A stretch of 64,000 bases of DNA from a virus. Of this stretch, positions 1,188-14,542 are shown piece by piece. The stretch spans positions 18,591 to 82,590 of the IMG/VR virus record IMGVR_UViG_3300042691_020932, one strand, 5' to 3'. The position numbers were made by a program, and so were the translations under genes. The notes under the pieces were generated by a model, which ran no database searches, had not been told where the DNA came from, and saw only the letters and a program-made list of their open reading frames with translations. Within the stretch, counting starts at the first letter, position 1. Every line of letters begins with the position of its first letter.

Positions 1188-1619
1188 TTATAAATCTCCC
1201 TGAGTCTGCTGCTTCAATAGTTTCGCTAGTTCTGCAGTTGAACCTACAAAAAGAGCATTATTTACTGTAGTTGGACCTTTACCAATCTTTTCCTCTTCAA
1301 TATCTTTAAGTTTCTTTTGAAGATCCATTAACTTATCGGTAGCATCTGCAACATTCTTAATCAACTGACCCGCAACTTCATATGCCCTTGGCATTTCACT
1401 TTCTTGTGCTAATTCTAAAATTCCGTTGATTGCCTCTTGACCTTTTTCTATGATTGAATATAAGTTTCCTCTCGTATATTCATAATCCTTTTTAACATCA
1501 TCCATTGCTGAAGATATTTTTTCAAACTTCTCTACTTCGGATTTATTGTCAATAGGTACTATTTCACTATCAACATTGAAAGCATCGTTCAACTTGTCGA
1601 ATTTTTTTGTCATTTTCAT
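1188..1619 (-). CDS. gp16: Terminase small subunit gp16
   Basis: DYEYTRGNLY...PRAYEVAGQLIK...NNALFVGSTAEL motifs; follows gp15. Confidence 0.93.
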   Translation of the reverse strand: MKMTKKFDKLNDAFNVDSEIVPIDNKSEVEKFEKISSAMDDVKKDYEYTRGNLYSIIEKGQEAINGILELAQESEMPRAYEVAGQLIKNVADATDKLMDLQKKLKDIEEEKIGKGPTTVNNALFVGSTAELAKLLKQQTQGDL

Positions 1620-2617
1620 GCTACACTACCACTGAATCCAAAATCATCTCCTTCTTCTACTAGAGCATTATCTGCATCAGTAATTGATTTAATAGGAGCT
1701 CCTGCTAGATGTGAAGTTATAGTTGTATTATCTTTTCCTCTTTCCACCGTTATTGTATTGCCAGATTTTGCTTTGACATACAACTCTTCTCCTTCCAAGT
1801 CAATATAAGTATCGACCGAGATTGAAGATGCATTATTTACTTCAATTACAAAATCTCCAGTTCCAATATCATTAGTTAAGTTTGTTAAAATAGTTCCAGT
1901 ATAATTTCTAATAGCTCTAGGTTCCGCAGAATATACAATATCTCTAGATGGAGTTGTTGTATAATCTCCAGCAATATATCCAACAGAAGACTTTTTGATA
2001 ATATCCTTGGTTGCGGAGGAAAGTGGTCCAAATAGATATGTTTTTGCAGTAAATCTTAGTGTATAAATCAAAACCCTTCTTGTATTAAAATCACCCTCAT
2101 AATCATCCTGCATCGTAATATTCTCAAGAATTACAGGAATATCTCTTTTTTCATTAATCGTATCAACCAGATTAACTGTCATAGTGTATGCTGGTTGAAA
2201 GTATGGTAAAATTTGCTCTACAATTTGAAGTGCATCGTCATTGAGTTTTGACATAATACTTAATTCAAATTGCATATTATATGGGACGGGTAAATATGCC
2301 TTTTTAATTTCAGTCCCATCTTGTGCTGATTTTTCAGTAAAATATTGAGTAGTTGTGGATTTTCTAGTCGAATCATATGTTAATCCAGTAAATTCAAATG
2401 ACATTCTTGGTAATGTAATTTGAACTGGTTTATTGAGATTTGGTGATTGGTTTAATCTTGCAAGGAATTTTTGAGTTGGCCCATATGCCAAAGGAACTTT
2501 AATTACACTAACTACCTGGTCTGAATTATTTGTATGTCTAATTTCTATATTATTAAATAAAGAACCAAAAGAAATTACAGTCCTTCTTAATATTTCGTTG
2601 TAAAAATATTCAAACAT
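1616..2617 (-). CDS. gp15: Tail sheath stabilizer/completion protein gp15
   Basis: MFEYFYNE..RRTVISFGSLFNNI, VPLAYGP.QKFLARL, LPRMSFE, QIVEQILPYFQP motifs. Confidence 0.93.
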   Translation of the reverse strand: MFEYFYNEILRRTVISFGSLFNNIEIRHTNNSDQVVSVIKVPLAYGPTQKFLARLNQSPNLNKPVQITLPRMSFEFTGLTYDSTRKSTTTQYFTEKSAQDGTEIKKAYLPVPYNMQFELSIMSKLNDDALQIVEQILPYFQPAYTMTVNLVDTINEKRDIPVILENITMQDDYEGDFNTRRVLIYTLRFTAKTYLFGPLSSATKDIIKKSSVGYIAGDYTTTPSRDIVYSAEPRAIRNYTGTILTNLTNDIGTGDFVIEVNNASSISVDTYIDLEGEELYVKAKSGNTITVERGKDNTTITSHLAGAPIKSITDADNALVEEGDDFGFSGSVA

Positions 2618-2660
2618 GATACTGAGTTGTGGTATTACTATTTAACAATCTGTTGAAGAC

Positions 2661-2667
2661 TATTTAT
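2661..2667 (-). promoter_or_regulatory. T4-type late promoter (ATAAATA)
   Basis: In the gp14-gp15 intergenic gap. Confidence 0.6.
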
Positions 2668-2671
2668 CTCT

Positions 2672-4090
2672 TTATGGCATTCCAAATGGATTAACTTCAC
2701 TGAAGTCTATAATTTGATCTGCCTCGTCCTCAATCTCATTATTTGCAGCATACCCATCATCTGCAATTCTAACATAATCATCAACTGTCTTTAAATAGTA
2801 CGATGCACTAGATGCAGATCCTACTATGTTCTCTCCGACAGTGAACTTACCGGTAATTTGAGATACTTGAAGAACTCTGGTCGTAGAGTTCCAAGATTTT
2901 ACTCTTGCAGTTGTACTACTTGATGAACCAACAACAACTTCATTTAAAACAAAGTTTCCTGTAGACGTTAGGATTGGATTTCCTATCGTGATTGTAGGAG
3001 CAATTGTATATCCTGCACCTGCGTTAGTGATGCGAATGGAAGTAATTGAGCCTCCTGTAGAAACAACTGCTGTCGCTGCCGCAGATACTGTAGAAACTCC
3101 AGTGAACGTAATCGTTGGTGGAGTTATATAACCAGAACCACCATTAGTTACTGTAATTATTCCAACAACACCACTTCCTATGGAAGCGATACCAGTAGCT
3201 CCTTTTCCACCACCACCTATAAATCTTACTCCAGGGGCAACTGTATATCCAAATCCGGGGTTTGTAATCTCTACACTTTGTACCGAAGATGCATTTGGTG
3301 AAACATTTTGGTTACATACAACAATATCATCAATCATTAATGCAACTGCAACTGCAGTTTTTCCTCCTGGCGGTGAGGATGATATTCCAACAGTTGGGGT
3401 AATAGTGTATCCCCCACCTCTATTAGTAACTTGAATATATCTAACTCCACCATTAACTACTGATGCCAATGCGGTTGCAGTGACTCCCGCACCAACCATT
3501 GTTAAATTAAACACATTTCCAATAGGATTTTTATCTCCATCAACTGAATCAGTACCACTAACAAGACCATCTATTTCATCAATATCAGTGTCAATAAGTT
3601 CATCCTCATATCTAAACAGTTCGCACTTAAGTTGATATGTATAAAGACCTTGAAGTTGATAAAATGGTTTTTCGTGCTCTACAAATTTAATTTCAAATAA
3701 TCTATTACCCAATGGAAAATAAATTAAATCACCTTCTTTTGGTCTTGATGATAATTTGATATTTGTTTGGTTTTGAATAAGTGGTGAAATATAGTTTTTA
3801 AATCTTTCTCTTGAAATTATCAAATTGACTTCATTTAAAGCCTGAATTCCAAACTTTGAAAGGATTGTTGTGTTGTCACCATATCCTTCATAGTTGTCTA
3901 TGTAAGCTTCTATTGGATATGCATTATTAAATTCAGATTCAATAACTTCTCTAATAACTGTTTTTTCTGTAATAAAACTTCTTGGAATATAATGCACGTC
4001 AATGCCATACATCCTAAGTTGTTCGTTAATCAAGTCCTGGATAAGCCCTTGTTCTGATTTTGAACCTTGCTGAAAAAATGGATTTAACAT
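2672..4090 (-). CDS. gp14: Neck protein gp14, with inserted GxGY beta-repeat region
   Basis: EQ.LIQDLINEQL, RPKEGDLIYFP, LFEIKFVEHEKPFYQL, C-terminal DFSE.NPFG. Confidence 0.92.
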   Translation of the reverse strand: MLNPFFQQGSKSEQGLIQDLINEQLRMYGIDVHYIPRSFITEKTVIREVIESEFNNAYPIEAYIDNYEGYGDNTTILSKFGIQALNEVNLIISRERFKNYISPLIQNQTNIKLSSRPKEGDLIYFPLGNRLFEIKFVEHEKPFYQLQGLYTYQLKCELFRYEDELIDTDIDEIDGLVSGTDSVDGDKNPIGNVFNLTMVGAGVTATALASVVNGGVRYIQVTNRGGGYTITPTVGISSSPPGGKTAVAVALMIDDIVVCNQNVSPNASSVQSVEITNPGFGYTVAPGVRFIGGGGKGATGIASIGSGVVGIITVTNGGSGYITPPTITFTGVSTVSAAATAVVSTGGSITSIRITNAGAGYTIAPTITIGNPILTSTGNFVLNEVVVGSSSSTTARVKSWNSTTRVLQVSQITGKFTVGENIVGSASSASYYLKTVDDYVRIADDGYAANNEIEDEADQIIDFSEVNPFGMP

Positions 4091-5362: not shown

Positions 5363-7867
5363 TCATGCTAAACAAATAACTCTCAAATCTTTTACTCTTG
5401 GGGGGAAAGCTTGATTTGTGCCAGCACCTATTAATTTAATGCTAACATATTTAAAAGAAGGTAATTTTGAAATACTGAATTCATGATCTTTAAAAACAAG
5501 TTCATGACTTTCATATCCAAGAACATCTGTTTTTTGAACTTTTTCATCTGAAGTTCCATCACTGGATGCTCTAAAAAGATCGATATCAGAGGCAAATCTG
5601 TTAGAATAACCTGGGAAAGGATAATAAATCAATTCTTCATTAGGATTATTTTTGATAGCATATAAACATCTTAAATCACTGTACTCATTAATATATGCAG
5701 AAACTAGAACTTTTATAGAAGTTGCTGGAATTTCTAGTTGAATAGGATTTGTAGCATATACAAATGATGATGGGTCATCATTTAGATTTGAAACTCTATC
5801 ATCAGCTGCGTAGTTTTGGATAGGGTTATTAATTCTATTAGTCACAAAAATCATTGAAGTTCTATCTAAGTCAATAACAGGAGAAATAAATCTATTTGTT
5901 GTTTCTAAAAATAAATTAACTGTTAATGATTTATTTCCGAAAAAGTCGCTACTCGTTTCTAGGAACTGAGTTTCATTTTCTTTAGAACAAATTAATCTTG
6001 GTGAATCGAAATAATTATTTTTATTCAAGTCAATTTCTTCAAATCCCTGGTCTAAGAATGAAGATTCTAAACCATCCACACTTGTTCCGGATACTGTTCT
6101 AACTCTAGCAGAAACATCAGTTCCATTTAAAGTAAGTGCCTGAATTAGTGGTCTTGCAACTTCAAATTGAATATTTTGAGTTGCTGTTATTTTATTTCCA
6201 CCAGTTAGTTTTGTATCATTAATGAATAATTTTGGAAATGAAACTCCTACGCTTCTATCGACTTGTCCTTGTGGTAACGCTGCCGTTTTTCCTGATGAAG
6301 ATGTGTCAATCTTTATTGTATAATAATCAAAATCTATAGAATCTGTAATCGTAGAATCCTGAAGTGTATGTGTTTTATTGATTCTTCGCAGAGAGATTCC
6401 ATTTAATTCATATTTAAATACTTGAGTTCCTGCAGTATAACTAAAAGCATTAGTTTGATCTATTTCTCTTGTTATTCCTGTTAATCTATTTCCAACTATT
6501 CCTTGATATGCAAGAATTTCCCTACCGATCATCAAATATCCAGGATTTGTGCTACTAATACCAACATTCTCAAATATTCCAAAGTTAGTGGTTGAATCTA
6601 CAATAAGATCTGCTGTAGAAGTTTTATCATAATTTCCTTGCAACTTGACTGGTTTAATGTCTGGCAAAACGTCCCTTATTACTACGTTATTTTCTTCAGC
6701 GTGCATTCCATGATTTCTGTGATTTACTTTTATATGTAAACCATCAGATTCGATTTCAATTCCATCAGTTTGAATAAAGACTCCTCCACTATTTAAGAAG
6801 GTCGTTATTCCTGAACTATTAATATACTGGACCGTATTTCCCACACCAGTTACAAAGTCGCCTTGAACGTTATCTAGGATTAATTCGTTTATTCCCGATA
6901 ACGTTTGAACTGACAAGAGCATATTTACACCAATATCATTTTGTCCGAGTTGTGATATTGTAAGTACATCTCCGTCACTATATCCAGTTCCTCCGTTAGA
7001 TATTGTCGCAGCAACTGCTACTCCATCAGTTATTGTTATATCTACAGTTGCATTTTTTCCTTGTCCGGTGATGCTTGTCAAAGCAATGCCAGTATAAACT
7101 AAACTACCTGCAGATGGAGTGTATCCAATTCCTGGATTAATGATCGTTAAGTTTCCAGAAGCAATACCGGCAGAATCTACATAATTGCCTGACGCATTAC
7201 TCCCCAACTGAATAATAGTATTTCCTAATTTTAAATTATTATCTTGAACTGTGCTTCCCAAACCAACTCTAATTCTTTTTGAGTTGAATTCGAGTGGATT
7301 TGGAATCAAAGTTGCAATTTGACCGTTTGCTCTACTTAAATCTGGATTATAAAAATTAAAATCTCCGAAAGCAGTTGTAAAATTAGCTCTATAAAGAGTA
7401 AATTTTAAATCCTCATATCCACTTTCTGTCCAAGTAGATCCATTTTGAGATTTAAACAATCCGCCGGATAATGGTTGTTTAGTAACTAAAACTTGCTTGG
7501 ATTCTAGACCATTTAAACTAGTAACATCAACTTCATTTAATCTAGAAACCCAAAGACTATAAGTTGGTAGATTCGCTAAAACAACTAGTGCATGAAATTT
7601 TTTTCCAGGCAAATATACTGGAGATGGAAAAGTGACTCTAGTTGGTATAGATGCATCGGCGGAAACTTGAATATTTTTGGGGTTAAGTACAACCTCACTA
7701 AAAGGAAAAACTTTTTGTGTTGGTAGACCAAGTTCCATTGGTCTAAGTTGAACTGTAACTGGAAGTTTTTTATCTTTCTCTGCAAAATACAAGTCTACTG
7801 AAGTAACAAAAACTCCGGCATCGTTATCAACATAAAATGATTGAGCTAATGGATCTACAACTTTCAT
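5363..7867 (-). CDS. VrlC/DUF4815-like virion structural protein, C-terminal piece (part 3)
   Basis: Begins at the DPLAQSF motif; FKSQNGSTW, DLKFTLYRA.F, SPVIDL; ends P.VKDLRVICLA. Confidence 0.85.
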   Translation of the reverse strand: MKVVDPLAQSFYVDNDAGVFVTSVDLYFAEKDKKLPVTVQLRPMELGLPTQKVFPFSEVVLNPKNIQVSADASIPTRVTFPSPVYLPGKKFHALVVLANLPTYSLWVSRLNEVDVTSLNGLESKQVLVTKQPLSGGLFKSQNGSTWTESGYEDLKFTLYRANFTTAFGDFNFYNPDLSRANGQIATLIPNPLEFNSKRIRVGLGSTVQDNNLKLGNTIIQLGSNASGNYVDSAGIASGNLTIINPGIGYTPSAGSLVYTGIALTSITGQGKNATVDITITDGVAVAATISNGGTGYSDGDVLTISQLGQNDIGVNMLLSVQTLSGINELILDNVQGDFVTGVGNTVQYINSSGITTFLNSGGVFIQTDGIEIESDGLHIKVNHRNHGMHAEENNVVIRDVLPDIKPVKLQGNYDKTSTADLIVDSTTNFGIFENVGISSTNPGYLMIGREILAYQGIVGNRLTGITREIDQTNAFSYTAGTQVFKYELNGISLRRINKTHTLQDSTITDSIDFDYYTIKIDTSSSGKTAALPQGQVDRSVGVSFPKLFINDTKLTGGNKITATQNIQFEVARPLIQALTLNGTDVSARVRTVSGTSVDGLESSFLDQGFEEIDLNKNNYFDSPRLICSKENETQFLETSSDFFGNKSLTVNLFLETTNRFISPVIDLDRTSMIFVTNRINNPIQNYAADDRVSNLNDDPSSFVYATNPIQLEIPATSIKVLVSAYINEYSDLRCLYAIKNNPNEELIYYPFPGYSNRFASDIDLFRASSDGTSDEKVQKTDVLGYESHELVFKDHEFSISKLPSFKYVSIKLIGAGTNQAFPPRVKDLRVICLA

Positions 7868-7887
7868 TTTCTTGTGATTTTTTTTTA

Positions 7888-8142
7888 TTATTTATTTTGC
7901 TTAAGCAAATCTATTTCCATTTTCAATTCTTTAACCGCCTCTATCAAAACAGGAATCAATTGTTTATAGTCAACTGACAAATATCCACTCTCTTCTACAT
8001 TTACCATCTCAGGAAATTCTTTTTGAAGTTCCTGAGCTATGACACCATATTCAAAACCAGTTTTTCCTGTCAAATCTTTCATTTTGTCGTTCCATTCATA
8101 ATATTTGCCATTGATATTGGATAATTTATTTAAATACTTCAT
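7888..8142 (-). CDS. Peptidase S74 intramolecular chaperone domain, C-terminal half (stand-alone ORF)
   Basis: G..Y.W...G.IAQE....FPE.V......LSVDY..L.PVLIEA.KEL plus terminal coiled coil; lacks the SD.RLK motif. Confidence 0.85.
   Translation of the reverse strand: MKYLNKLSNINGKYYEWNDKMKDLTGKTGFEYGVIAQELQKEFPEMVNVEESGYLSVDYKQLIPVLIEAVKELKMEIDLLKQNK
7889..7895 (-). promoter_or_regulatory. T4-type late promoter (ATAAATA) for VrlC part 3
   Basis: Overlaps the stop of the S74 half-ORF, about 21 nt before ATG 7867. Confidence 0.5.
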
Positions 8143-8143
8143 T

Positions 8144-9871
8144 TTAAAAAATAAGATTCATCAACTTACTTAATGCACTATTTATAGAAACAATATTCTG
8201 CTTAAGACGAACATCACTCATACCACCCATTCCACCACCACCACCGCCGCCACCGCCCATTCCACCACCGCCACCGCCACCGCCGCCGCCACCGCCGCCA
8301 CCACCGCCGCCACCGCCCATTCCACCACCGCCACCACCACCGCCGCCGCCACCACCGCCACCGCCGCCGCCACCGCCGCCACCACCGCCGCCACCGCCCA
8401 TTCCACCACCGCCACCACCGCCGCCGCCGCCACCACCGCCGCCGCCACCGCCCATTCCACCACCGCCACCACCGCCGCCGCCACCGCCCATTCCACCACC
8501 GCCACCACCTCCAGATGGTGCTGGACCACCCATCGCACCACCGCCGCCGCCACCGCCCATTCCACCACCGCCAGACGGTGCTCCTCCCATTTGACCAGCA
8601 GTGCCAGTACTGACTCTGCTATCACTATCCCGCACTGCCACTTTATTATCCTTACCTATTACTGTTTTTTCACCATGTTTGATATTGCCGGTACTGACTT
8701 GAATATTTGCATTCTTTGCATACTCACTTTTGTTAATTTGATTAACAACTTTCTGTTGTTGTTTTGCAGTCATATCTGCATCAATTATTTTTCTCAGGTC
8801 TTTGGAAAGACCAGCATCTTTTGCAATTTCTTTTAGTCTGTTTGCACCACCATCATATAGTTGCTTAGTATTATAATTATAATAAACTGTAGTAGGTGGT
8901 GGTGGTGGTGATGGTTGGTTTGGAGAACTTACTGGTGGAGCTGGTGGTTGAGGAATAAACGATCCACCGCCACCACCGCCACCGCCACCACCGCCACCGC
9001 CACCACCGCCGCCATCATCAGATGGTGGAAACCCTGGGTTAAATGGATAATCTGGTTCGTTACCAGGTCCACCTATAACATTAATTACCTGAGTAATATT
9101 AGTTTCAACTCTTACTGGTCTTGTAACAATAACATTCTCCTGAACCATATTAACTTTACCTTCGGCATAATAATTCTCTTCTGCCGCCGTTGTATATGTA
9201 CCAACAACTAGAGAATTATTTCTGCTACTTGTTAATCTAAAAGGTCTAGTTCCTGCTTGGAAAACGGGATTAACATCAACGTTTGGGTTTGGAATAAAAA
9301 ATGAACCAATAACAACACCTTCATCATTAGTTACCAACTTAACATCAGTAACAACAGCCTCTGCTTTACTGGTAGAACCTCTTAATTTCATACCATTGGC
9401 AATGTATCCAAGAAAATCTGATGTTCTGTCGGATAAACTAAAAGTATCTACATTTAAAATAGTTGAGGTTGATGAATAATTTTCGGGAATTATTAAATTG
9501 GAATTATATGGATTTACATCAAAAATATCTTGGGGATTTGTATAATCCCCATACTTATGATTTTGTTTTGCCACTCTAAATCTAATAGTTGGCAAACTTG
9601 GGGAATCAAAAGAACCAATAACAGTTTCTGAAACTTGAAAGACTCCACTCGTCATTCTAATTTCAATTAGTTTTGGGACAACAAATGAATTAACATCAAC
9701 TCCATTAAAAAATGCAAAAACCCTTGTCAAAGGTTTCATTCTTTTTGAAATAAATTCAATATTCCTGGACCTCATATAAGGTAGGATTTTAGTATCTAAA
9801 ACCCTATCTCCAAAAGATACTGTTTTAGATACTGGTTCTTTATTAGGTGTTGGTGGTTTTACTATCGACAT
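8144..9871 (-). CDS. VrlC/DUF4815-like protein, middle piece (part 2), with Pro/Gly-rich tail ending in the S74 autocleavage motif
   Basis: PYMRSRNIEF...KP.TR.FAFF.G, VPKLIEI, GSFFIP motifs; C-terminal SDVRLKQNI. Confidence 0.85.
   Translation of the reverse strand: MSIVKPPTPNKEPVSKTVSFGDRVLDTKILPYMRSRNIEFISKRMKPLTRVFAFFNGVDVNSFVVPKLIEIRMTSGVFQVSETVIGSFDSPSLPTIRFRVAKQNHKYGDYTNPQDIFDVNPYNSNLIIPENYSSTSTILNVDTFSLSDRTSDFLGYIANGMKLRGSTSKAEAVVTDVKLVTNDEGVVIGSFFIPNPNVDVNPVFQAGTRPFRLTSSRNNSLVVGTYTTAAEENYYAEGKVNMVQENVIVTRPVRVETNITQVINVIGGPGNEPDYPFNPGFPPSDDGGGGGGGGGGGGGGGGGSFIPQPPAPPVSSPNQPSPPPPPTTVYYNYNTKQLYDGGANRLKEIAKDAGLSKDLRKIIDADMTAKQQQKVVNQINKSEYAKNANIQVSTGNIKHGEKTVIGKDNKVAVRDSDSRVSTGTAGQMGGAPSGGGGMGGGGGGGAMGGPAPSGGGGGGGMGGGGGGGGGGGMGGGGGGGGGGGGGGGGGMGGGGGGGGGGGGGGGGGGGGGGGGGGMGGGGGGGGGGGGGGGGGGGMGGGGGGGGGMGGMSDVRLKQNIVSINSALSKLMNLIF
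8179..8186 (-). promoter_or_regulatory. Perfect T4 late promoter consensus (TATAAATA), internal to the ORF
   Basis: 36 nt upstream of ATG 8142. Confidence 0.4.
8221..8580 (-). repeat. Poly-glycine (GGT/GGC) tandem repeat punctuated by Met codons
   Basis: Repeated gccaccgcccattccaccaccgcca units on the + strand; encodes (M-Gn) blocks. Confidence 0.95.
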
Positions 9872-9925
9872 ATTTTTTATTACCTACAATTTTACTATTA
9901 AGTAAATCGTTTATCTAAGATATTT

Positions 9926-9932
9926 TATTTAT
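9926..9932 (-). promoter_or_regulatory. T4-type late promoter (ATAAATA) for VrlC part 2
   Basis: In the 75-nt gap between parts 1 and 2. Confidence 0.55.
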
Positions 9933-9946
9933 GATGGATGAACCTC

Positions 9947-12900
9947 TCAACGAATAGTACCCATTCTTGGACCCTTTATACCAAGTCCCATACCAGCACC
10001 CATGACTGAACCAGTATTGTTTGTTGGTTTACTGAGAATATTTGGATCCTTAATTTGTGGTTTTCCTCTTTCATCCCGTTTATTTCTGCCAGTTAATGGA
10101 TCTTTTGTTCTATCAACCAAACCTTTTTTACCTTTTTCTATTTGTGTCCCAACTGTATTTCTAACTTTAATACCTTTTGCATATTCATATTCAAGAACTT
10201 GTCTATCTTCCTCAGTAAATACCGCTGGTCTCATTACTCCTGGTTTATACTTGCCCTTTAATTCTGCATATTTTGCGTCAGATATTATCGCACTACCCAT
10301 GCTGCCACCGCCACCGAAGCCACCGCCCATTCCACCACCCATATTTCCACCAGTCTTGTCCTTAGATGGCAATATTACTGGGCCAGCTGGTAGAATTCTT
10401 TCTTTGGGAAATGGTTTTGCTGCAAGAGGTGGTGCTGCGGGTTGCTTAACTGGTCTTGGATTCACTGGTGAAGATATCGAATTTGCAGGGGATTGTGTCG
10501 CAGGTGTTGTTTTTGGTGGAGCCCAAGTCTCATGAGAATTCCAAGTAACTGGAGCAAGACCTGTTTGTTGGTCTGACTGTGTACTTTGTGTCTGCAGACT
10601 AGTTTCTGTATATGCGTCACCAATCTCCACAGTGTTTGCTTTCACCCTAACTTGATCTACCCATACGTCAGAAGATGGATATAAATCAATTGTTCCCGTA
10701 TAAAAATCTTCGGCAAAGGGATTTACGCTAACTGCCCTAGTTGCATATGGTTGATTTAATAGTCTAACTTCTGTATAATCCAGAGTTACAAGTTGTCCTG
10801 TTTTTCTTACACCGGAGCCTATGATATTATTATCAACTCTAGCGTCAGCATTTGGTCTTAATGCTGGACTATTTCTATTTAATTTTATTCTAGATGTTGT
10901 TCCTAATTGCAAATCAAGTGAAGTCGTATAGTGAGTTGGTCTTAATTCCAAATTCTTAGTGTCTATGGAATTTTTAACAATTGTTGATTTATTTTGAGCG
11001 ATTGTAGTTGAAAAATTATCAACAAAAAATCCAGATTTAAATCTATTTAAACCATTCTCATCAGTCACTGTAAAATTAGAAGCCTCAATTTCCAAAGCAG
11101 AAAGAGAAGTATAATACTCTAAATTTTCTATCCTACTTTCAAGTCTTCCAATATCTGCCATAGTATATCTTCTATGTTCTTTCAACTCAACTTCTGCAGT
11201 TTCGGCATTGCAAAGATAAGGTGGAAGATATACCGTCGCTAATTCTAGGGCATCGTCATTTGAAGTTGGAACCTGTGGAATTTCTGCAGGAATTCCATAT
11301 TTTACATAAAATAAACCATTTTTATCCAAAAGTATCTTATCAATTCTTGGTAGGTAAAACGAATAAGTTAATAATATTGATTCGTCTGAAGCCAAAACAT
11401 CTGATGCGGAACTACCTAAAGCGGTAATGTCTCTTCCCAAAAACTCAAATGGCGATCTTGTACCTTCTGTTGCTACTATTGATGACACTCTAGGTCTTAT
11501 GTCAATAGTATCTGTACTTCTTATTTCACCATCTACTAGTTCAACCTCACAAAAATCAAACTGATCGTAAGAATTTGCTGTTGTTATATCTCCAGTATCT
11601 GAGAAAGAAAAACTTGCAGACTCAAAGACTACTTTTAATTTTCTTGTCAGTGTTTTTGTTGTATTTTCCCTGACCAATTTGGAATAATCATAAATCGTTG
11701 GTTTTTGATTACTATCAAGACGGAACAGAGTAGTTACATTTCTATCACCAACATCAACTGAAGAAACAGTCGCAGTAATTCCACTTTCTCTGAAAGTTAT
11801 AGTTTCTCCCTCAATAAAAGTGTTTGAGTTTATATAAACAAACCCTAATTTCAAATCATTTATTTTTTCTACATAAATTCCAATTGCTTTGCTTGTACTA
11901 CCTATAAACTCTTCCCCTACTAGTAGATCTCCAACTTTATTTGTTGGGCCATTTAGAGCAGTTAGTACTACGGAAGGTAAATCCGGAGTGTTTGTGTCAT
12001 TTGACTCAAAAATTCCATATACTTTTGTAACATCTGGTTCAAGTAAACAAATTTCATTATCTTGCACTCTAGTTCCATATGGATAATTTCCATACACTAG
12101 TCCATCATTTAAGGTGGTTGATCCAATTCCAGAAGCAGATGAACTTGATTTGTCTATTACTAGAACTTTAGCTCTATTTTTATTTTTAATTTTAGACTTT
12201 ACATTAATTTTTCTAAGGGTTGCAATTAGTTTAGCATTTCCATTTTCAGTAAGTCCTGTTACAACTAAAGACTTTGACCCATTTGAATAAACAAAATTTT
12301 CCTGTCTTAATGATTGTGTAGTACCATTCTCTGTTATTAAAACATATCTTTCCTCATCAAATGGTAAAAATGTTTCGTCCGTGTCTGCAGTTAAAGTCTG
12401 TGTTGACCCCTGGGTTATAAGAACATTAAATTGTTTTCTTATAGTTAAGTTTGTTTCGCTTAAATCGACACTTTCTACATTTTTTTTAGGAAGAACAGTG
12501 TATAAAGTATTATCAATAGAATTTTGAACGTTTGATGATAATACTTTAAAGTCTGATGGATTTATAGCAGTTGTTGGGAGAGCACCATCACATATTCCAA
12601 TAACTGTTGTTACACCAACAATGGTTAGTGTTTTTCCAGAAACCGATTGAACTACAGCTAAAGTAGTTGTAGTTAATCCTGGGTTTGAAAATGCAACTAG
12701 ATTTCCGGTAGTGACTATTCCAGTAAAAAAGTTTTCTGTGGAAGTTACTATTGAAGTTCCTCCGGATCTTGCTGATATGTTTACCTGATCTAGCTGCAGT
12801 GATACGACGGGAAGAGTGTCGCCTGAGAAAGTATATGCACTTCCTACAGTTCCATATACTGACTGAACCTCATTTATGTTATAACTTCTTGTTTTTTTAA

Positions 12901-14542
12901 TTATTCTGTTGTTGTTTTCTCCATTAAAAATTAATTTTTCTCCAATAGAAAAAGTTCCTTTCGTATCATAAACCGTTAAACCCACACCAGCGGCAACAGA
13001 ATATCGCAAAAATCCTGATGCACCACTTTGTCTACCTTTTACATGAACCGGTGCAGTTAGTGTTATGGGCTCATTCAAAGTTAACTCAGTATACATCTGA
13101 GTATCGTATAAAGATATATCCCACCTATTTTCTTGTGGTCTTGATGTAGAATATGAACCAGATTCTAGTGCGAAATCATAGACCCTAGATATGCCAATTT
13201 CTTTTCCTGCAGCGGTTGTTGGTGATACCCCCACCCTAGAATCTCTAAGTGTTATATAATAACTTGTACCAAGACCTATAGAAGGAGATCCATGCACCCT
13301 ATTTAAGGTAAATGTTGCTCCAGTGGTATAATTTATACTCTGATCAGCTAATGTTTTTGTAGTTCTTGGTTTTTCTATATCAAAAAACCCAGGACTTATT
13401 GATTCAATTTCAAATCCTTTAACATAGGCTTTTGTTGGAGAAATTACATATGTCGCAAGACTTTCGCTTGGTTGATTATTTTCATAAGTTAGTTGATTTT
13501 CATTGAAAATACCATCATTACCCTTTAAATTATTTAAACTTTCTTGTAACGTAATTACTGGCGTATTAATATAATAATCGCCAGATTCATCATAAGTTCT
13601 TCTTGCAATTTCTTGTGCTAAGATATTATATTCTGGTTTACGGTTTAATTTGAGAAGTTTTCCATCTTCAATTTCCATTAAAACAATAAAATTACTTAAA
13701 TCGGTACTGTCTGATGGAATTTGCTCTAATTTTACAAAAATTGATAATCTGTCAGCGCCTGGGGCGGCAAAATTGGAAAATCCTTGAGAGTTATCATTTA
13801 AAGTCTCATCATCATACGAATCTAGTATTCTTTCGTATATTCTAAGTCCAACTTTGCAAGTTGGTGTCGTCGTGTAAGGAGATACATATAATATACTCGT
13901 AGGAACTGATACAAAAAATCCTCTAATAAAGTAAATACCTTCTTCTAGGTATACAGCAGATCCCTTAAAAGTGCTTCCACCGGATAATGTTGTTGCAAAT
14001 CCTTGTCCTCTTAATAGATTTAATTCTTCAATATCTTCTTCGTCATCATTTTCTATTGTTTCTGGATTTATTACAATAGTATCATCATCATCTACTAATA
14101 AATTTTCTCCGTCTAGAAATCTAGCTTGACCTACGGTAGATCCTGAAGCAAGGTATTTTACAAATAGTGTAGTATTAACTACGCCGTTTCCTTTTGCAAT
14201 AAATTCCTGAATTACTGCAGTTACTCCACTCGTTTGTCCCTTTATCTGAGTTCCTACAAGGGTATCGAGGTAATAAGTGGAAGGTTTTCCCTGAAAATCA
14301 TCTTCTAAAATTACGGCATTTAAATCATTTTTATATGTTATATTTCCCGGAATAACTACAGAACCTTCTTTGAAAAAATGATTTCCAAATTGTTCGATTT
14401 GATTTTGTAGAATAGACTGTAGAGTAGTTAATTCTCTTGCTTGTACTGGATATCCTGGTTTAAATAATACTCTAAAGAAGTTTTTTTGACTATCATAGTC
14501 ATCATAATATGGTGATATGTTTAAATTAAGCTCTTGTGCCAT
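9947..14542 (-). CDS. VrlC/DUF4815-like virion structural protein, N-terminal piece (part 1)
   Basis: PYYDDY, LFKPG.PVQARELT.LQSILQNQI, APGADRL, RRTYDESGDY, YLPRID, RYTM.DIG.LE.RI.NLEYYTSLS.LE, RFKSGFFVDNF. Confidence 0.9.
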   Translation of the reverse strand: MAQELNLNISPYYDDYDSQKNFFRVLFKPGYPVQARELTTLQSILQNQIEQFGNHFFKEGSVVIPGNITYKNDLNAVILEDDFQGKPSTYYLDTLVGTQIKGQTSGVTAVIQEFIAKGNGVVNTTLFVKYLASGSTVGQARFLDGENLLVDDDDTIVINPETIENDDEEDIEELNLLRGQGFATTLSGGSTFKGSAVYLEEGIYFIRGFFVSVPTSILYVSPYTTTPTCKVGLRIYERILDSYDDETLNDNSQGFSNFAAPGADRLSIFVKLEQIPSDSTDLSNFIVLMEIEDGKLLKLNRKPEYNILAQEIARRTYDESGDYYINTPVITLQESLNNLKGNDGIFNENQLTYENNQPSESLATYVISPTKAYVKGFEIESISPGFFDIEKPRTTKTLADQSINYTTGATFTLNRVHGSPSIGLGTSYYITLRDSRVGVSPTTAAGKEIGISRVYDFALESGSYSTSRPQENRWDISLYDTQMYTELTLNEPITLTAPVHVKGRQSGASGFLRYSVAAGVGLTVYDTKGTFSIGEKLIFNGENNNRIIKKTRSYNINEVQSVYGTVGSAYTFSGDTLPVVSLQLDQVNISARSGGTSIVTSTENFFTGIVTTGNLVAFSNPGLTTTTLAVVQSVSGKTLTIVGVTTVIGICDGALPTTAINPSDFKVLSSNVQNSIDNTLYTVLPKKNVESVDLSETNLTIRKQFNVLITQGSTQTLTADTDETFLPFDEERYVLITENGTTQSLRQENFVYSNGSKSLVVTGLTENGNAKLIATLRKINVKSKIKNKNRAKVLVIDKSSSSASGIGSTTLNDGLVYGNYPYGTRVQDNEICLLEPDVTKVYGIFESNDTNTPDLPSVVLTALNGPTNKVGDLLVGEEFIGSTSKAIGIYVEKINDLKLGFVYINSNTFIEGETITFRESGITATVSSVDVGDRNVTTLFRLDSNQKPTIYDYSKLVRENTTKTLTRKLKVVFESASFSFSDTGDITTANSYDQFDFCEVELVDGEIRSTDTIDIRPRVSSIVATEGTRSPFEFLGRDITALGSSASDVLASDESILLTYSFYLPRIDKILLDKNGLFYVKYGIPAEIPQVPTSNDDALELATVYLPPYLCNAETAEVELKEHRRYTMADIGRLESRIENLEYYTSLSALEIEASNFTVTDENGLNRFKSGFFVDNFSTTIAQNKSTIVKNSIDTKNLELRPTHYTTSLDLQLGTTSRIKLNRNSPALRPNADARVDNNIIGSGVRKTGQLVTLDYTEVRLLNQPYATRAVSVNPFAEDFYTGTIDLYPSSDVWVDQVRVKANTVEIGDAYTETSLQTQSTQSDQQTGLAPVTWNSHETWAPPKTTPATQSPANSISSPVNPRPVKQPAAPPLAAKPFPKERILPAGPVILPSKDKTGGNMGGGMGGGFGGGGSMGSAIISDAKYAELKGKYKPGVMRPAVFTEEDRQVLEYEYAKGIKVRNTVGTQIEKGKKGLVDRTKDPLTGRNKRDERGKPQIKDPNILSKPTNNTGSVMGAGMGLGIKGPRMGTIR

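What the first reader, a model, noticed from the sequence alone, without database searches (positions are those of the whole stretch)
7888..8222. Naturally split peptidase S74 autocleaving chaperone: trans-acting half or +1 frameshift
Seen: part 2 ends SDVRLKQNIVSINSALSKLMNLIF*. One nucleotide later an ORF supplies the rest of the S74 domain (LNKLSNINGKYYEW...GVIAQE...VDY..L). The L-x-K-L-x-N helix occurs in both halves. The junction reads ATT TTT TAA A ATG, where a +1 slip at UUU-stop (prfB-like) would fuse the halves in frame. A perfect TATAAATA lies 36 nt upstream of the second ATG. Established: S74 domains are normally cis C-terminal chaperones of trimeric fibres, cleaving at the Ser of SD.RLK through a Ser-Lys dyad. 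Inference: a two-component chaperone/protease that assembles in trans, or a frameshift-tuned one, here on a VrlC-type protein rather than a classical fibre.
Basis: partly seen in the sequence, partly recalled or inferred. Interest (0 to 1): 0.78.

Follow-up and report, generated by a model that had tools for sequence, protein, structure and literature searches.

The report
Split self-cleaving phage chaperone domain
In an uncultured freshwater T4-like phage and its relatives, a fold-and-self-cut domain that normally forms one piece at the end of tail proteins is encoded in two parts, a 24-residue tag on a large virion protein and a separate 84-residue protein with its own late promoter, so it most likely works in trans and not through a ribosomal frameshift.

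Summary
Part 2 of a VrlC/DUF4815-like virion protein ends with Ser-Asp-x-x-Leu-Lys plus one helix. One base after its stop, an 84-aa ORF supplies the rest of the peptidase S74 (ICA) domain.

It is neither an assembly error nor a pseudogene. An independent contig spans the T6A4 run unchanged. All 35 distinct relatives that carry this S74 are split at the same place, and both halves are under purifying selection (dN/dS about 0.2).

A conserved +1 frameshift is ruled out. The second ORF lies in frame 0, +1 or +2 in different relatives, with stop-to-start distances of -17 to +8 nt.

A T4-type late promoter motif ([AC]TAAATA) lies 26-47 nt upstream of the small ORF in 35 of 35 relatives, with frozen synonymous sites. 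Where one site was lost, another appeared nearby.

By fold, the small protein is the complete "cutter" body (alpha1 to alpha4). The tag carries the "cable" with the Ser-Lys dyad and a duplicated alpha1 helix.

Best reading: a two-gene ICA domain that reassembles in trans. Cleavage itself is inferred, not shown.

I found no published description. This scan has noted the same split on other DNA (e1-5380974 and others).

The parts
9947..14542 (-). Part 1 (1531 aa) of the VrlC/DUF4815-like virion protein
   Evidence: It matches phrog_358 positions 1-1146 and DUF4815 at 208.6 bits.
9926..9932 (-). ATAAATA late-promoter-like motif, 61 nt upstream of part 2
   Evidence: Genome-wide motif map.
8144..9871 (-). 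Part 2 gene (575 aa): a body homologous to the middle of VrlC, then a Pro-rich linker, a conserved module, a poly-Gly/Met tract and the S74a tag
   Evidence: Residues 12-258 match phrog_358 positions 1184-1400. Translation.
8219..8593 (-). Met-punctuated poly-glycine tract directly before the predicted cleavage site (limits approximate)
   Evidence: The tract length is hypervariable in relatives.
8147..8218 (-). S74a tag, Ser552-Phe575. It holds the 'cable' with the Ser552/Lys557 dyad (SDVRLKQNI) and an extra copy of helix alpha1 (SALSKLMNL). The stop codon is at 8144-8146.
   Evidence: It matches Pfam positions 1-23. S1, D2, L5, K6, N8, I9 and I12 are invariant in 35 relatives. Ser is encoded by both AGY and TCN codons.
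8179..8186 (-). TATAAATA, a T4-type late promoter motif inside the tag-coding sequence, 36 nt before the S74b ATG
   Evidence: Position. An equivalent [AC]TAAATA is present in 35 of 35 split relatives, against 1 of 23 canonical domains.
8140..8151 (-). Junction T6-A4-TG: the TAA stop of part 2, one base, then the ATG of S74b
   Evidence: Sequence. Contigs of runs X12 and X13 are identical across it.
7888..8142 (-). S74b gene (84 aa): the complete body of the S74/ICA domain, alpha1-beta1-alpha2-beta2-alpha3-beta3-beta4-alpha4
   Evidence: Pfam scores 36.3 bits. The AF2 model has pLDDT 89.6. Foldseek matches the MyRF ICA domain 7dc3 with TM 0.79. There are 74 clusters of 82-93 aa homologues.
7889..7895 (-). 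ATAAATA motif overlapping the S74b stop codon, 28 nt upstream of part 3
5363..7867 (-). Part 3 (834 aa) of the VrlC-like protein
   Evidence: It matches phrog_358 positions 1421-2055. It is 52% identical to the VrlC of Synechococcus phage S-SCSM1.

Best explanation
This is a genuine two-gene form of the peptidase S74 / intramolecular chaperone autocleavage (ICA) domain.

Shown:
- The large virion protein (part 2 of a VrlC-like protein) ends in a 24-residue tag. The tag holds the cleavage strand with the Ser-Lys dyad and one alpha1-type helix.
- The next gene encodes the whole remaining domain body, including its own alpha1 helix and the C-terminal coiled-coil helix.
- The two always occur together and are always split at this point.
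- Both are under purifying selection.
- The small gene has a conserved T4-type late promoter motif inside the tag-coding sequence, and its start lies within -17 to +8 nt of the upstream stop.

Inferred:
- The 84-aa protein trimerises through alpha4.
- It takes up the free C-terminal tags of three part-2 chains in its beta-strand 'donuts'. In one-piece ICA domains each donut already holds the cable of a neighbouring subunit.
- This brings the three chains together. The dyad then cuts between Met551 and Ser552, which leaves the poly-Gly end as the mature C-terminus and releases the tag together with the chaperone.
For: The split is real:
- An independent contig (run X13, a different study) and a contig from run X12 span the junction with no difference.
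- The exact 84-aa protein is on 20 contigs.

The split is conserved:
- All 50 IMG/VR loci whose S74b is at least 62% identical are split, giving 35 distinct pairs.
- All 30 loci at 51% identity or less are one-piece fibres.
- Tag and small ORF co-occur in all 8 complete loci of the first set and are absent together in 71.

Selection:
- dN/dS is 0.20 for S74b and 0.23 for the tag, with synonymous sites near saturation.
- The catalytic Ser uses both AGY and TCN codons, and the invariant Leu5 uses six codons.

Fold:
- The S74b model has pLDDT 89.6 and the element order of ICA.
- The best structural match is the MyRF ICA domain 7dc3, with TM 0.79 and E 7.5e-5.
- In that structure the cable from the neighbouring subunit threads the donut, and the alpha1 helices form a collar (PMC8326128).
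- The MyRF dyad acts within one chain (PMC5436001). This matches both dyad residues lying on the tag.

Promoter:
- [AC]TAAATA is present in 35 of 35 split loci, against a background of 0.07 per 80 nt and 1 of 23 canonical domains.
- Inside the motif, Leu is CTA in 30 of 30 and Asn is AAT in 29 of 29. The invariant Asn8 outside it is AAT 18 / AAC 17.
- The same motif precedes about 21 late genes of this genome by 18-61 nt.
- The consensus is the published one for T4-like phages (PMC1524935).
Against: - No experiment shows binding or cleavage.
- The sequence directly upstream of the cleavage site is a flexible poly-Gly or low-complexity tract, not the triple beta-helix that phage ICA domains normally cap. 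What is being chaperoned is therefore unclear.
- The tag's alpha1 copy overlaps the promoter motif in most relatives, so part of its conservation may be at the DNA level.
- The monomer model of a read-through form places the cable with confidence (pLDDT about 92), but the region around the duplicated helix only at 58-71.
- Transcription start and expression were not measured. Only two short contigs from an RNA library lie on the region.
Confidence: 0.6

Rival explanations
1. The tag is a docking peptide only. The 84-aa protein binds it and stays on as a permanent trimerising cap, or acts as a chaperone without proteolysis, so no cleavage occurs.
For: - The segment before the Ser is a flexible Gly tract, not a beta-helix whose folding would trigger cleavage.
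- Trimerisation by the alpha4 coiled coil is the main assembly force in ICA domains (PMC8326128).
Against: Ser1 and Lys6 of the tag are invariant in 35 distinct sequences. Ser switches between codon families, which points to selection on the catalytic residues themselves.
Confidence: 0.2
2. The tag is a remnant kept only because it carries the promoter of the small gene. The 84-aa protein works on something else, for example part 3 or another fibre.
For: - The most conserved part of the tag's helix (N-A-L-N-R-L) coincides with the CTAAATA motif.
- Relatives also carry one-piece S74 fibres elsewhere in their genomes.
Against: - The cable residues S, D, L, K, N, I, I lie upstream of the motif. 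They are invariant at the protein level while their codons vary freely.
- Tag and small gene are gained or lost together.
Confidence: 0.08
3. A programmed +1 ribosomal frameshift at UUU-UAA fuses the two ORFs into one S74-bearing chain.
For: In this window, tRNA-Phe on UUU can re-pair perfectly on the overlapping UUU with a stop codon in the A site, and the +1 frame is open.
Against: - Relatives have the small ORF in frame 0 (in-frame TAA), +1 or +2. Junctions include ATGA, TTGA and GTGA overlaps, a 17-nt overlap and 2-8 nt spacers.
- There is no Shine-Dalgarno-like element before the site.
- The fused chain would hold a 13-14 residue insertion with a second alpha1 that no one-piece S74 has.
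- The small ORF has its own conserved promoter motif.
Confidence: 0.03
4. The split is a sequencing or assembly error in the T6A4 homopolymer, or a decaying pseudogene.
For: The break lies in a homopolymer run. Only assembled contigs were available, not raw reads.
Against: - Contigs from two studies are identical across the run.
- There are 35 distinct relatives with other junction sequences and the same break point.
- dN/dS is about 0.2 in both halves.
- There are 74 protein clusters of conserved length, 82-93 aa.
Confidence: 0.01

Closest known systems
Peptidase S74 / C-terminal intramolecular chaperone (CIMCD, ICA) domain: K1F endosialidase (PDB 3GW6), GA-1 neck appendage (3GUD), MyRF (7DC3)
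   Same: - It has the Ser-x4-Lys dyad motif S-D-x-x-L-K.
- It matches the Pfam family.
- It has the same element order, alpha1 to alpha4, with a long C-terminal helix.
- It sits at the C-terminal end of a virion protein.
   Different: - It is encoded by two genes, not one chain.
- Helix alpha1 is present on both pieces.
- A promoter motif lies inside the tag-coding sequence.
- The upstream segment is poly-Gly, not a triple beta-helix.
- The carrier is a VrlC/DUF4815-like protein.
Naturally split inteins, such as the DnaE split intein (own knowledge, not tested here)
   Same: An autoprocessing domain is divided between two genes, and the fragments must reassemble to become active.
   Different: The fold and chemistry are unrelated. 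Here the predicted outcome is cleavage and trimer assembly, not splicing, and the small fragment is expected to be a trimer.
Separate tail-fibre chaperones of T4-like phages (gp38, gp57A, Tfa proteins; own knowledge)
   Same: A small, separately encoded late protein is expected to help a large virion protein assemble and may be absent from the virion.
   Different: Those chaperones are not S74 domains and have no catalytic dyad on the client.
prfB-type +1 programmed frameshift
   Same: In this window a shift-prone codon is followed by a stop codon (UUU UAA).
   Different: There is no upstream stimulator and no conservation of frame or site in relatives.

Membership tests
Peptidase S74 / ICA domain | Ser and Lys of the catalytic dyad in the S-D-x-x-x-K motif | tested here: met
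   Ser552 and Lys557 lie on the tag. Both are invariant in 35 distinct relatives.
Peptidase S74 / ICA domain | Match to Pfam PF13884 above the 22-bit gathering score | tested here: met
   S74b alone scores 36.3 bits and the read-through scores 52.8 bits. The tag alone scores 14 bits.
Peptidase S74 / ICA domain | Fold alpha1-beta1-alpha2-beta2-alpha3-beta3-beta4-alpha4 with a C-terminal coiled-coil helix | tested here: met
   The AF2 model has pLDDT 89.6. Foldseek matches 7dc3 with TM 0.79, followed by 3gw6 and 3gud. The element order follows PMC8326128.
Peptidase S74 / ICA domain | Intramolecular: cleavage site and body in one polypeptide | tested here: not met
   There are two ORFs in the window and in 35 of 35 distinct relatives.
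Peptidase S74 / ICA domain | Autocleavage N-terminal to the Ser after trimer formation | not testable with these tools
   This needs co-expression and mass spectrometry.
Peptidase S74 / ICA domain | Caps a trimeric beta-helical or fibre segment directly upstream | tested here: inconclusive
   The upstream segment is a poly-Gly or low-complexity tract of variable length. The structure of the part-2 body was not modelled.
prfB-type +1 programmed frameshift | Shift-prone P-site codon followed by a stop codon | tested here: met
   UUU UAA A in the window.
prfB-type +1 programmed frameshift | Shine-Dalgarno-like stimulator a few bases upstream | tested here: not met
   The upstream sequence AAGUUGAUGAAUCUUAUU has no such element.
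prfB-type +1 programmed frameshift | Site and frame relation conserved in relatives | tested here: not met
   Frame offsets are 0 (1 pair), +1 (11) and +2 (23), with gaps of -17 to +8 nt.
T4-type late promoter | [T/A/C]ATAAATA-type motif a short distance upstream of a late gene | tested here: met
   The window has TATAAATA at 8179-8186. The motif is present in 35 of 35 relatives with frozen synonymous sites, and it precedes late genes across the genome. The consensus is from PMC1524935.
T4-type late promoter | Transcript start about 6 nt downstream of the motif | not tested
   No raw RNA reads were available. The contigs of RNA run X19 do not reach the site.

The most novel reading that the evidence does not exclude
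The 84-aa protein is a free, reusable trans-acting trimerising chaperone-protease. It recognises a portable 22-30 residue C-terminal tag (cable plus helix), which can sit on more than one kind of virion protein: a VrlC-like protein here and a different Gly-rich fibre-like protein in L112/L113. The promoter embedded in the tag lets the phage set the chaperone dose independently of the client. This would turn a single-use intramolecular chaperone into an enzyme-like assembly factor.
Probability: 0.3. Interest if true: 0.8.

Novelty: new variant of a known kind. Interest (0 to 1): 0.65.

Why it matters
- S74/ICA domains are the textbook case of a chaperone that must be part of the chain it folds and then cuts itself off. 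The same domain controls release of the human transcription factor MYRF.
- A conserved natural form puts the cleavage strand and dyad on the client and the whole body on a separate small protein. This offers a direct test of whether the domain can assemble and cut in trans.
- It also defines a minimal recognition tag, which could be used as a removable trimerisation tag.
- It shows how a promoter can be maintained inside a coding sequence, with a replacement site appearing nearby where the original was lost.
- It documents stepwise fission of a giant phage structural gene at domain boundaries.

Tried and rejected
- Megablast of the region against the phage collection found no match. No cultured phage carries this split form: the best S74 hits are one-piece fibres at 44% identity or less.
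- Counting TATAAATA in the window alone gave 3 matches against 6.2 expected. I first took the motif for chance, and only the comparison with relatives changed that.
- Raw reads were not available, only Logan contigs. The contigs of X15 and RNA run X19 do not span the junction.
- A phmmer search of the read-through product against PDB sequences gave only weak hits. A profile of the small protein found MyRF, the S16 fibre and GA-1 weakly.
- AF2 of a read-through form of relative L086 did not settle which alpha1 copy occupies the canonical place. pLDDT is 58-71 there, and the model is a monomer of an obligate trimer.
- The sigma-70 promoter and terminator scan showed nothing relevant between part 2, S74b and part 3.
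- Full-text searches for a split or trans-acting S74 domain found no description.
- Distance correlations among tag, S74b and part 2 are all positive (0.46-0.59). They do not separate cassette transfer from vertical descent with loss.

Full report
**What is there**

All genes in this part of the window lie on the minus strand.
- ORF1 (8144-9871, 575 aa) ends in a long Met-punctuated poly-Gly tract followed by SDVRLKQNIVSINSALSKLMNLIF and TAA.
- One base later, ORF2 (7888-8142, 84 aa) begins MKYLNKLSNINGKYYEWND.
- Pfam Peptidase_S74 matches ORF1 residues 552-573 to profile positions 1-23 (14 bits). It matches ORF2 residues 3-47 to positions 16-57 (36.3 bits, cut-off 22).
- Reading through with one T skipped gives 52.8 bits, but in two stretches.

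**Setting**

The window belongs to an 82.6-kb linear IMG/VR virus record with 36% G+C, estimated 38% complete. It carries T4-like baseplate, neck and sheath-stabiliser genes.

One PHROG family of 2056 positions (phrog_358, DUF4815) is divided over three genes:
- Part 1 (9947-14542) covers positions 1-1146.
- ORF1, which is part 2, covers positions 1184-1400.
- The 834-aa protein at 5363-7867, part 3, covers positions 1421-2055.

The closest cultured relatives are T4-like cyanophages. In Synechococcus phage S-SCSM1 the same gene is a single 2603-aa CDS annotated VrlC, virion protein, in the same gene order. Runs that hold the sequence are freshwater and lake metagenomes, plus some labelled fungus metagenome.

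**Not an error, not a pseudogene**

- A 259-nt contig of run X13 (another study) and a 736-nt contig of X12 cover the T6A4 run with no difference.
- The exact 84-aa protein is recorded on 20 contigs, and 74 clusters of 82-93 aa homologues (63-100% identical) exist.
- Two scans of IMG/VR gave a clean dichotomy. All 50 loci whose S74 body is at least 62% identical are split, giving 35 distinct tag/body pairs including the window. All 30 loci at 51% identity or less are ordinary one-piece fibres.
- In the first set of 80 VrlC-like loci, tag and small ORF are both present in 8 and both absent in 71. The single apparent exception is a contig that ends inside the small ORF.
- Pairwise dN/dS is 0.20 for the small ORF and 0.23 for the first 22 tag codons, with synonymous differences near saturation.
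- In the tag, S1, D2, L5, K6, N8, I9 and I12 are invariant. The Ser is encoded by AGT/AGC in 25 and TCN in 10, and Leu5 by six different codons.

**Not a conserved frameshift**

- The stop-to-start distance ranges from -17 to +8 nt.
- The small ORF is in frame 0 in one pair (TAA AAA ATG in L004/L005/L086), in frame +1 in 11 pairs and in frame +2 in 23 pairs. These include ATGA-type overlaps.
- The window's UUU UAA site could slip in principle. However, there is no Shine-Dalgarno-like element before it.
- The fused chain would contain a 13-14 residue insertion that no one-piece domain has.
- What is conserved is two separate polypeptides whose stop and start lie close together.

**An internal late promoter**

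- Every one of the 35 distinct split loci has [AC]TAAATA starting 26-47 nt upstream of the small ORF's ATG. Background is 0.07 per 80 nt. One-piece domains have it in 1 of 23.
- In 30 loci the motif is CTAAATA, made by the codons Leu-Asn-Arg of the tag's helix. There the Leu codon is CTA in 30 of 30, although CTA is about 15% of Leu codons in this phage's structural genes. The Asn codon is AAT in 29 of 29, whereas the equally invariant Asn8 is AAT 18 / AAC 17.
- In the four lineages that changed these residues (the window, L086, L088, L091), an ATAAATA appears instead 12-15 nt further upstream, at Ile-Asn.
- In this genome, about 21 of 28 [AC]TAAATA motifs on the coding strand lie 18-61 nt before a gene start. 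These include part 2 (9932), the small ORF (8185) and part 3 (7895).
- TATAAATA, with a variable first base, and CTAAATA are the published late-promoter consensus sequences of T4-like phages (PMC1524935).
- Function as a promoter is inferred. No transcript start was mapped.

**Where the break lies in the fold**

- An AF2 model of the small protein (35-sequence alignment, pLDDT 89.6) has helix 2-8, strand, helix, strand, helix, two strands and a long helix 59-82.
- Its best structural match is the MyRF ICA domain (7dc3, TM 0.79, E 7.5e-5), followed by the endosialidase and GA-1 chaperones.
- The MyRF paper describes the monomer as alpha1-beta1-alpha2-beta2-alpha3-beta3...beta4-alpha4. The alpha4 coiled coil drives trimerisation and the alpha1 helices form a collar. 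The 'cable' that carries the Ser-Lys site comes from the neighbouring subunit and threads a 'donut' of beta-strands (PMC8326128).
- The small protein is therefore the complete body. The tag is the cable plus a second alpha1.
- Alignment with one-piece domains shows the extra segment directly.
- Because the cable-donut contact is already between chains, cutting the chain after the cable is structurally plausible.
- In MyRF the dyad works within one chain (PMC5436001), which matches both dyad residues lying on the tag.

**Most likely mechanism (inferred)**

The small protein trimerises and takes up three free C-terminal tags, bringing three part-2 chains together. The dyad then cuts before Ser552.

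Weak points:
- The segment before the Ser is a flexible, length-variable Gly tract, not a beta-helix.
- The tag's helix may be conserved partly for the promoter.
- Nothing has been tested at the bench.

**Evolution**

- On a tree of part 2, one-gene forms never carry S74.
- The S74 cassette needs at least five gains or losses on well-supported branches, and it is split wherever it occurs.
- Relatives carry one-piece S74 fibres elsewhere in the same record, so the split form is a specialised variant and not a lineage-wide change.

**Novelty**

Full-text searches found no description of a split or trans-acting S74 domain. Earlier notes of this scan describe the same family on other DNA, as well as other split S74 systems. 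I used them only as leads, after my own analysis.

Noticed in passing
L040:6502-8280 and L112:1520-3001: A Hint/intein-like module lies between the protein body and the Pro/Gly linker plus S74 tag. In L040 it scores 23.9 bits (E 5e-5) against PT-HINT. Its C-terminal motif ends ...SHN and is followed by K or I, so there is no +1 nucleophile. One chain therefore carries two different self-cleaving modules.
   Followed up: partly
L008:7813-8250, L009:7775-8242, L040:8544-8954: In some lineages a 135-155 aa SET-domain ORF (PF00856, 48 bits) is inserted between the small S74 gene and part 3.
   Followed up: partly
window 8219-8593; L004 versus L005: The poly-Gly tract before the tag is hypervariable in length. 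L004 and L005 are otherwise identical here but differ by 96 residues. The window has about 120 residues.
   Followed up: partly
L112 and L113, about 1520-3260: The same split S74 (tag plus an 85-aa ORF with a 4-nt overlap) sits on a different Gly-rich, fibre-like protein. No VrlC-like part was found within 3 kb, which suggests the tag is portable.
   Followed up: partly
window 5363-14542 and loci L004-L083: The VrlC/DUF4815-like gene occurs as one, two or three genes in relatives, broken at the same domain boundaries. Forms without S74 end in Gly/Asn/Lys/Arg-rich basic tails.
   Followed up: partly
window 9947-10540 (C-terminal ~190 aa of part 1): Part 1 ends in a Gly/Met-rich stretch followed by a basic tail. 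This region has no Pfam match.
   Followed up: no
whole genome, coding strand: [AC]TAAATA precedes most late genes by 18-61 nt, and several of these motifs lie inside the 3' end of the upstream gene.
   Followed up: partly
window 7644-7794 and 7957-8107: Two 151-nt contigs of a freshwater metatranscriptome run (X19) lie on part 3 and on the small ORF. This is only a weak hint of transcription.
   Followed up: no
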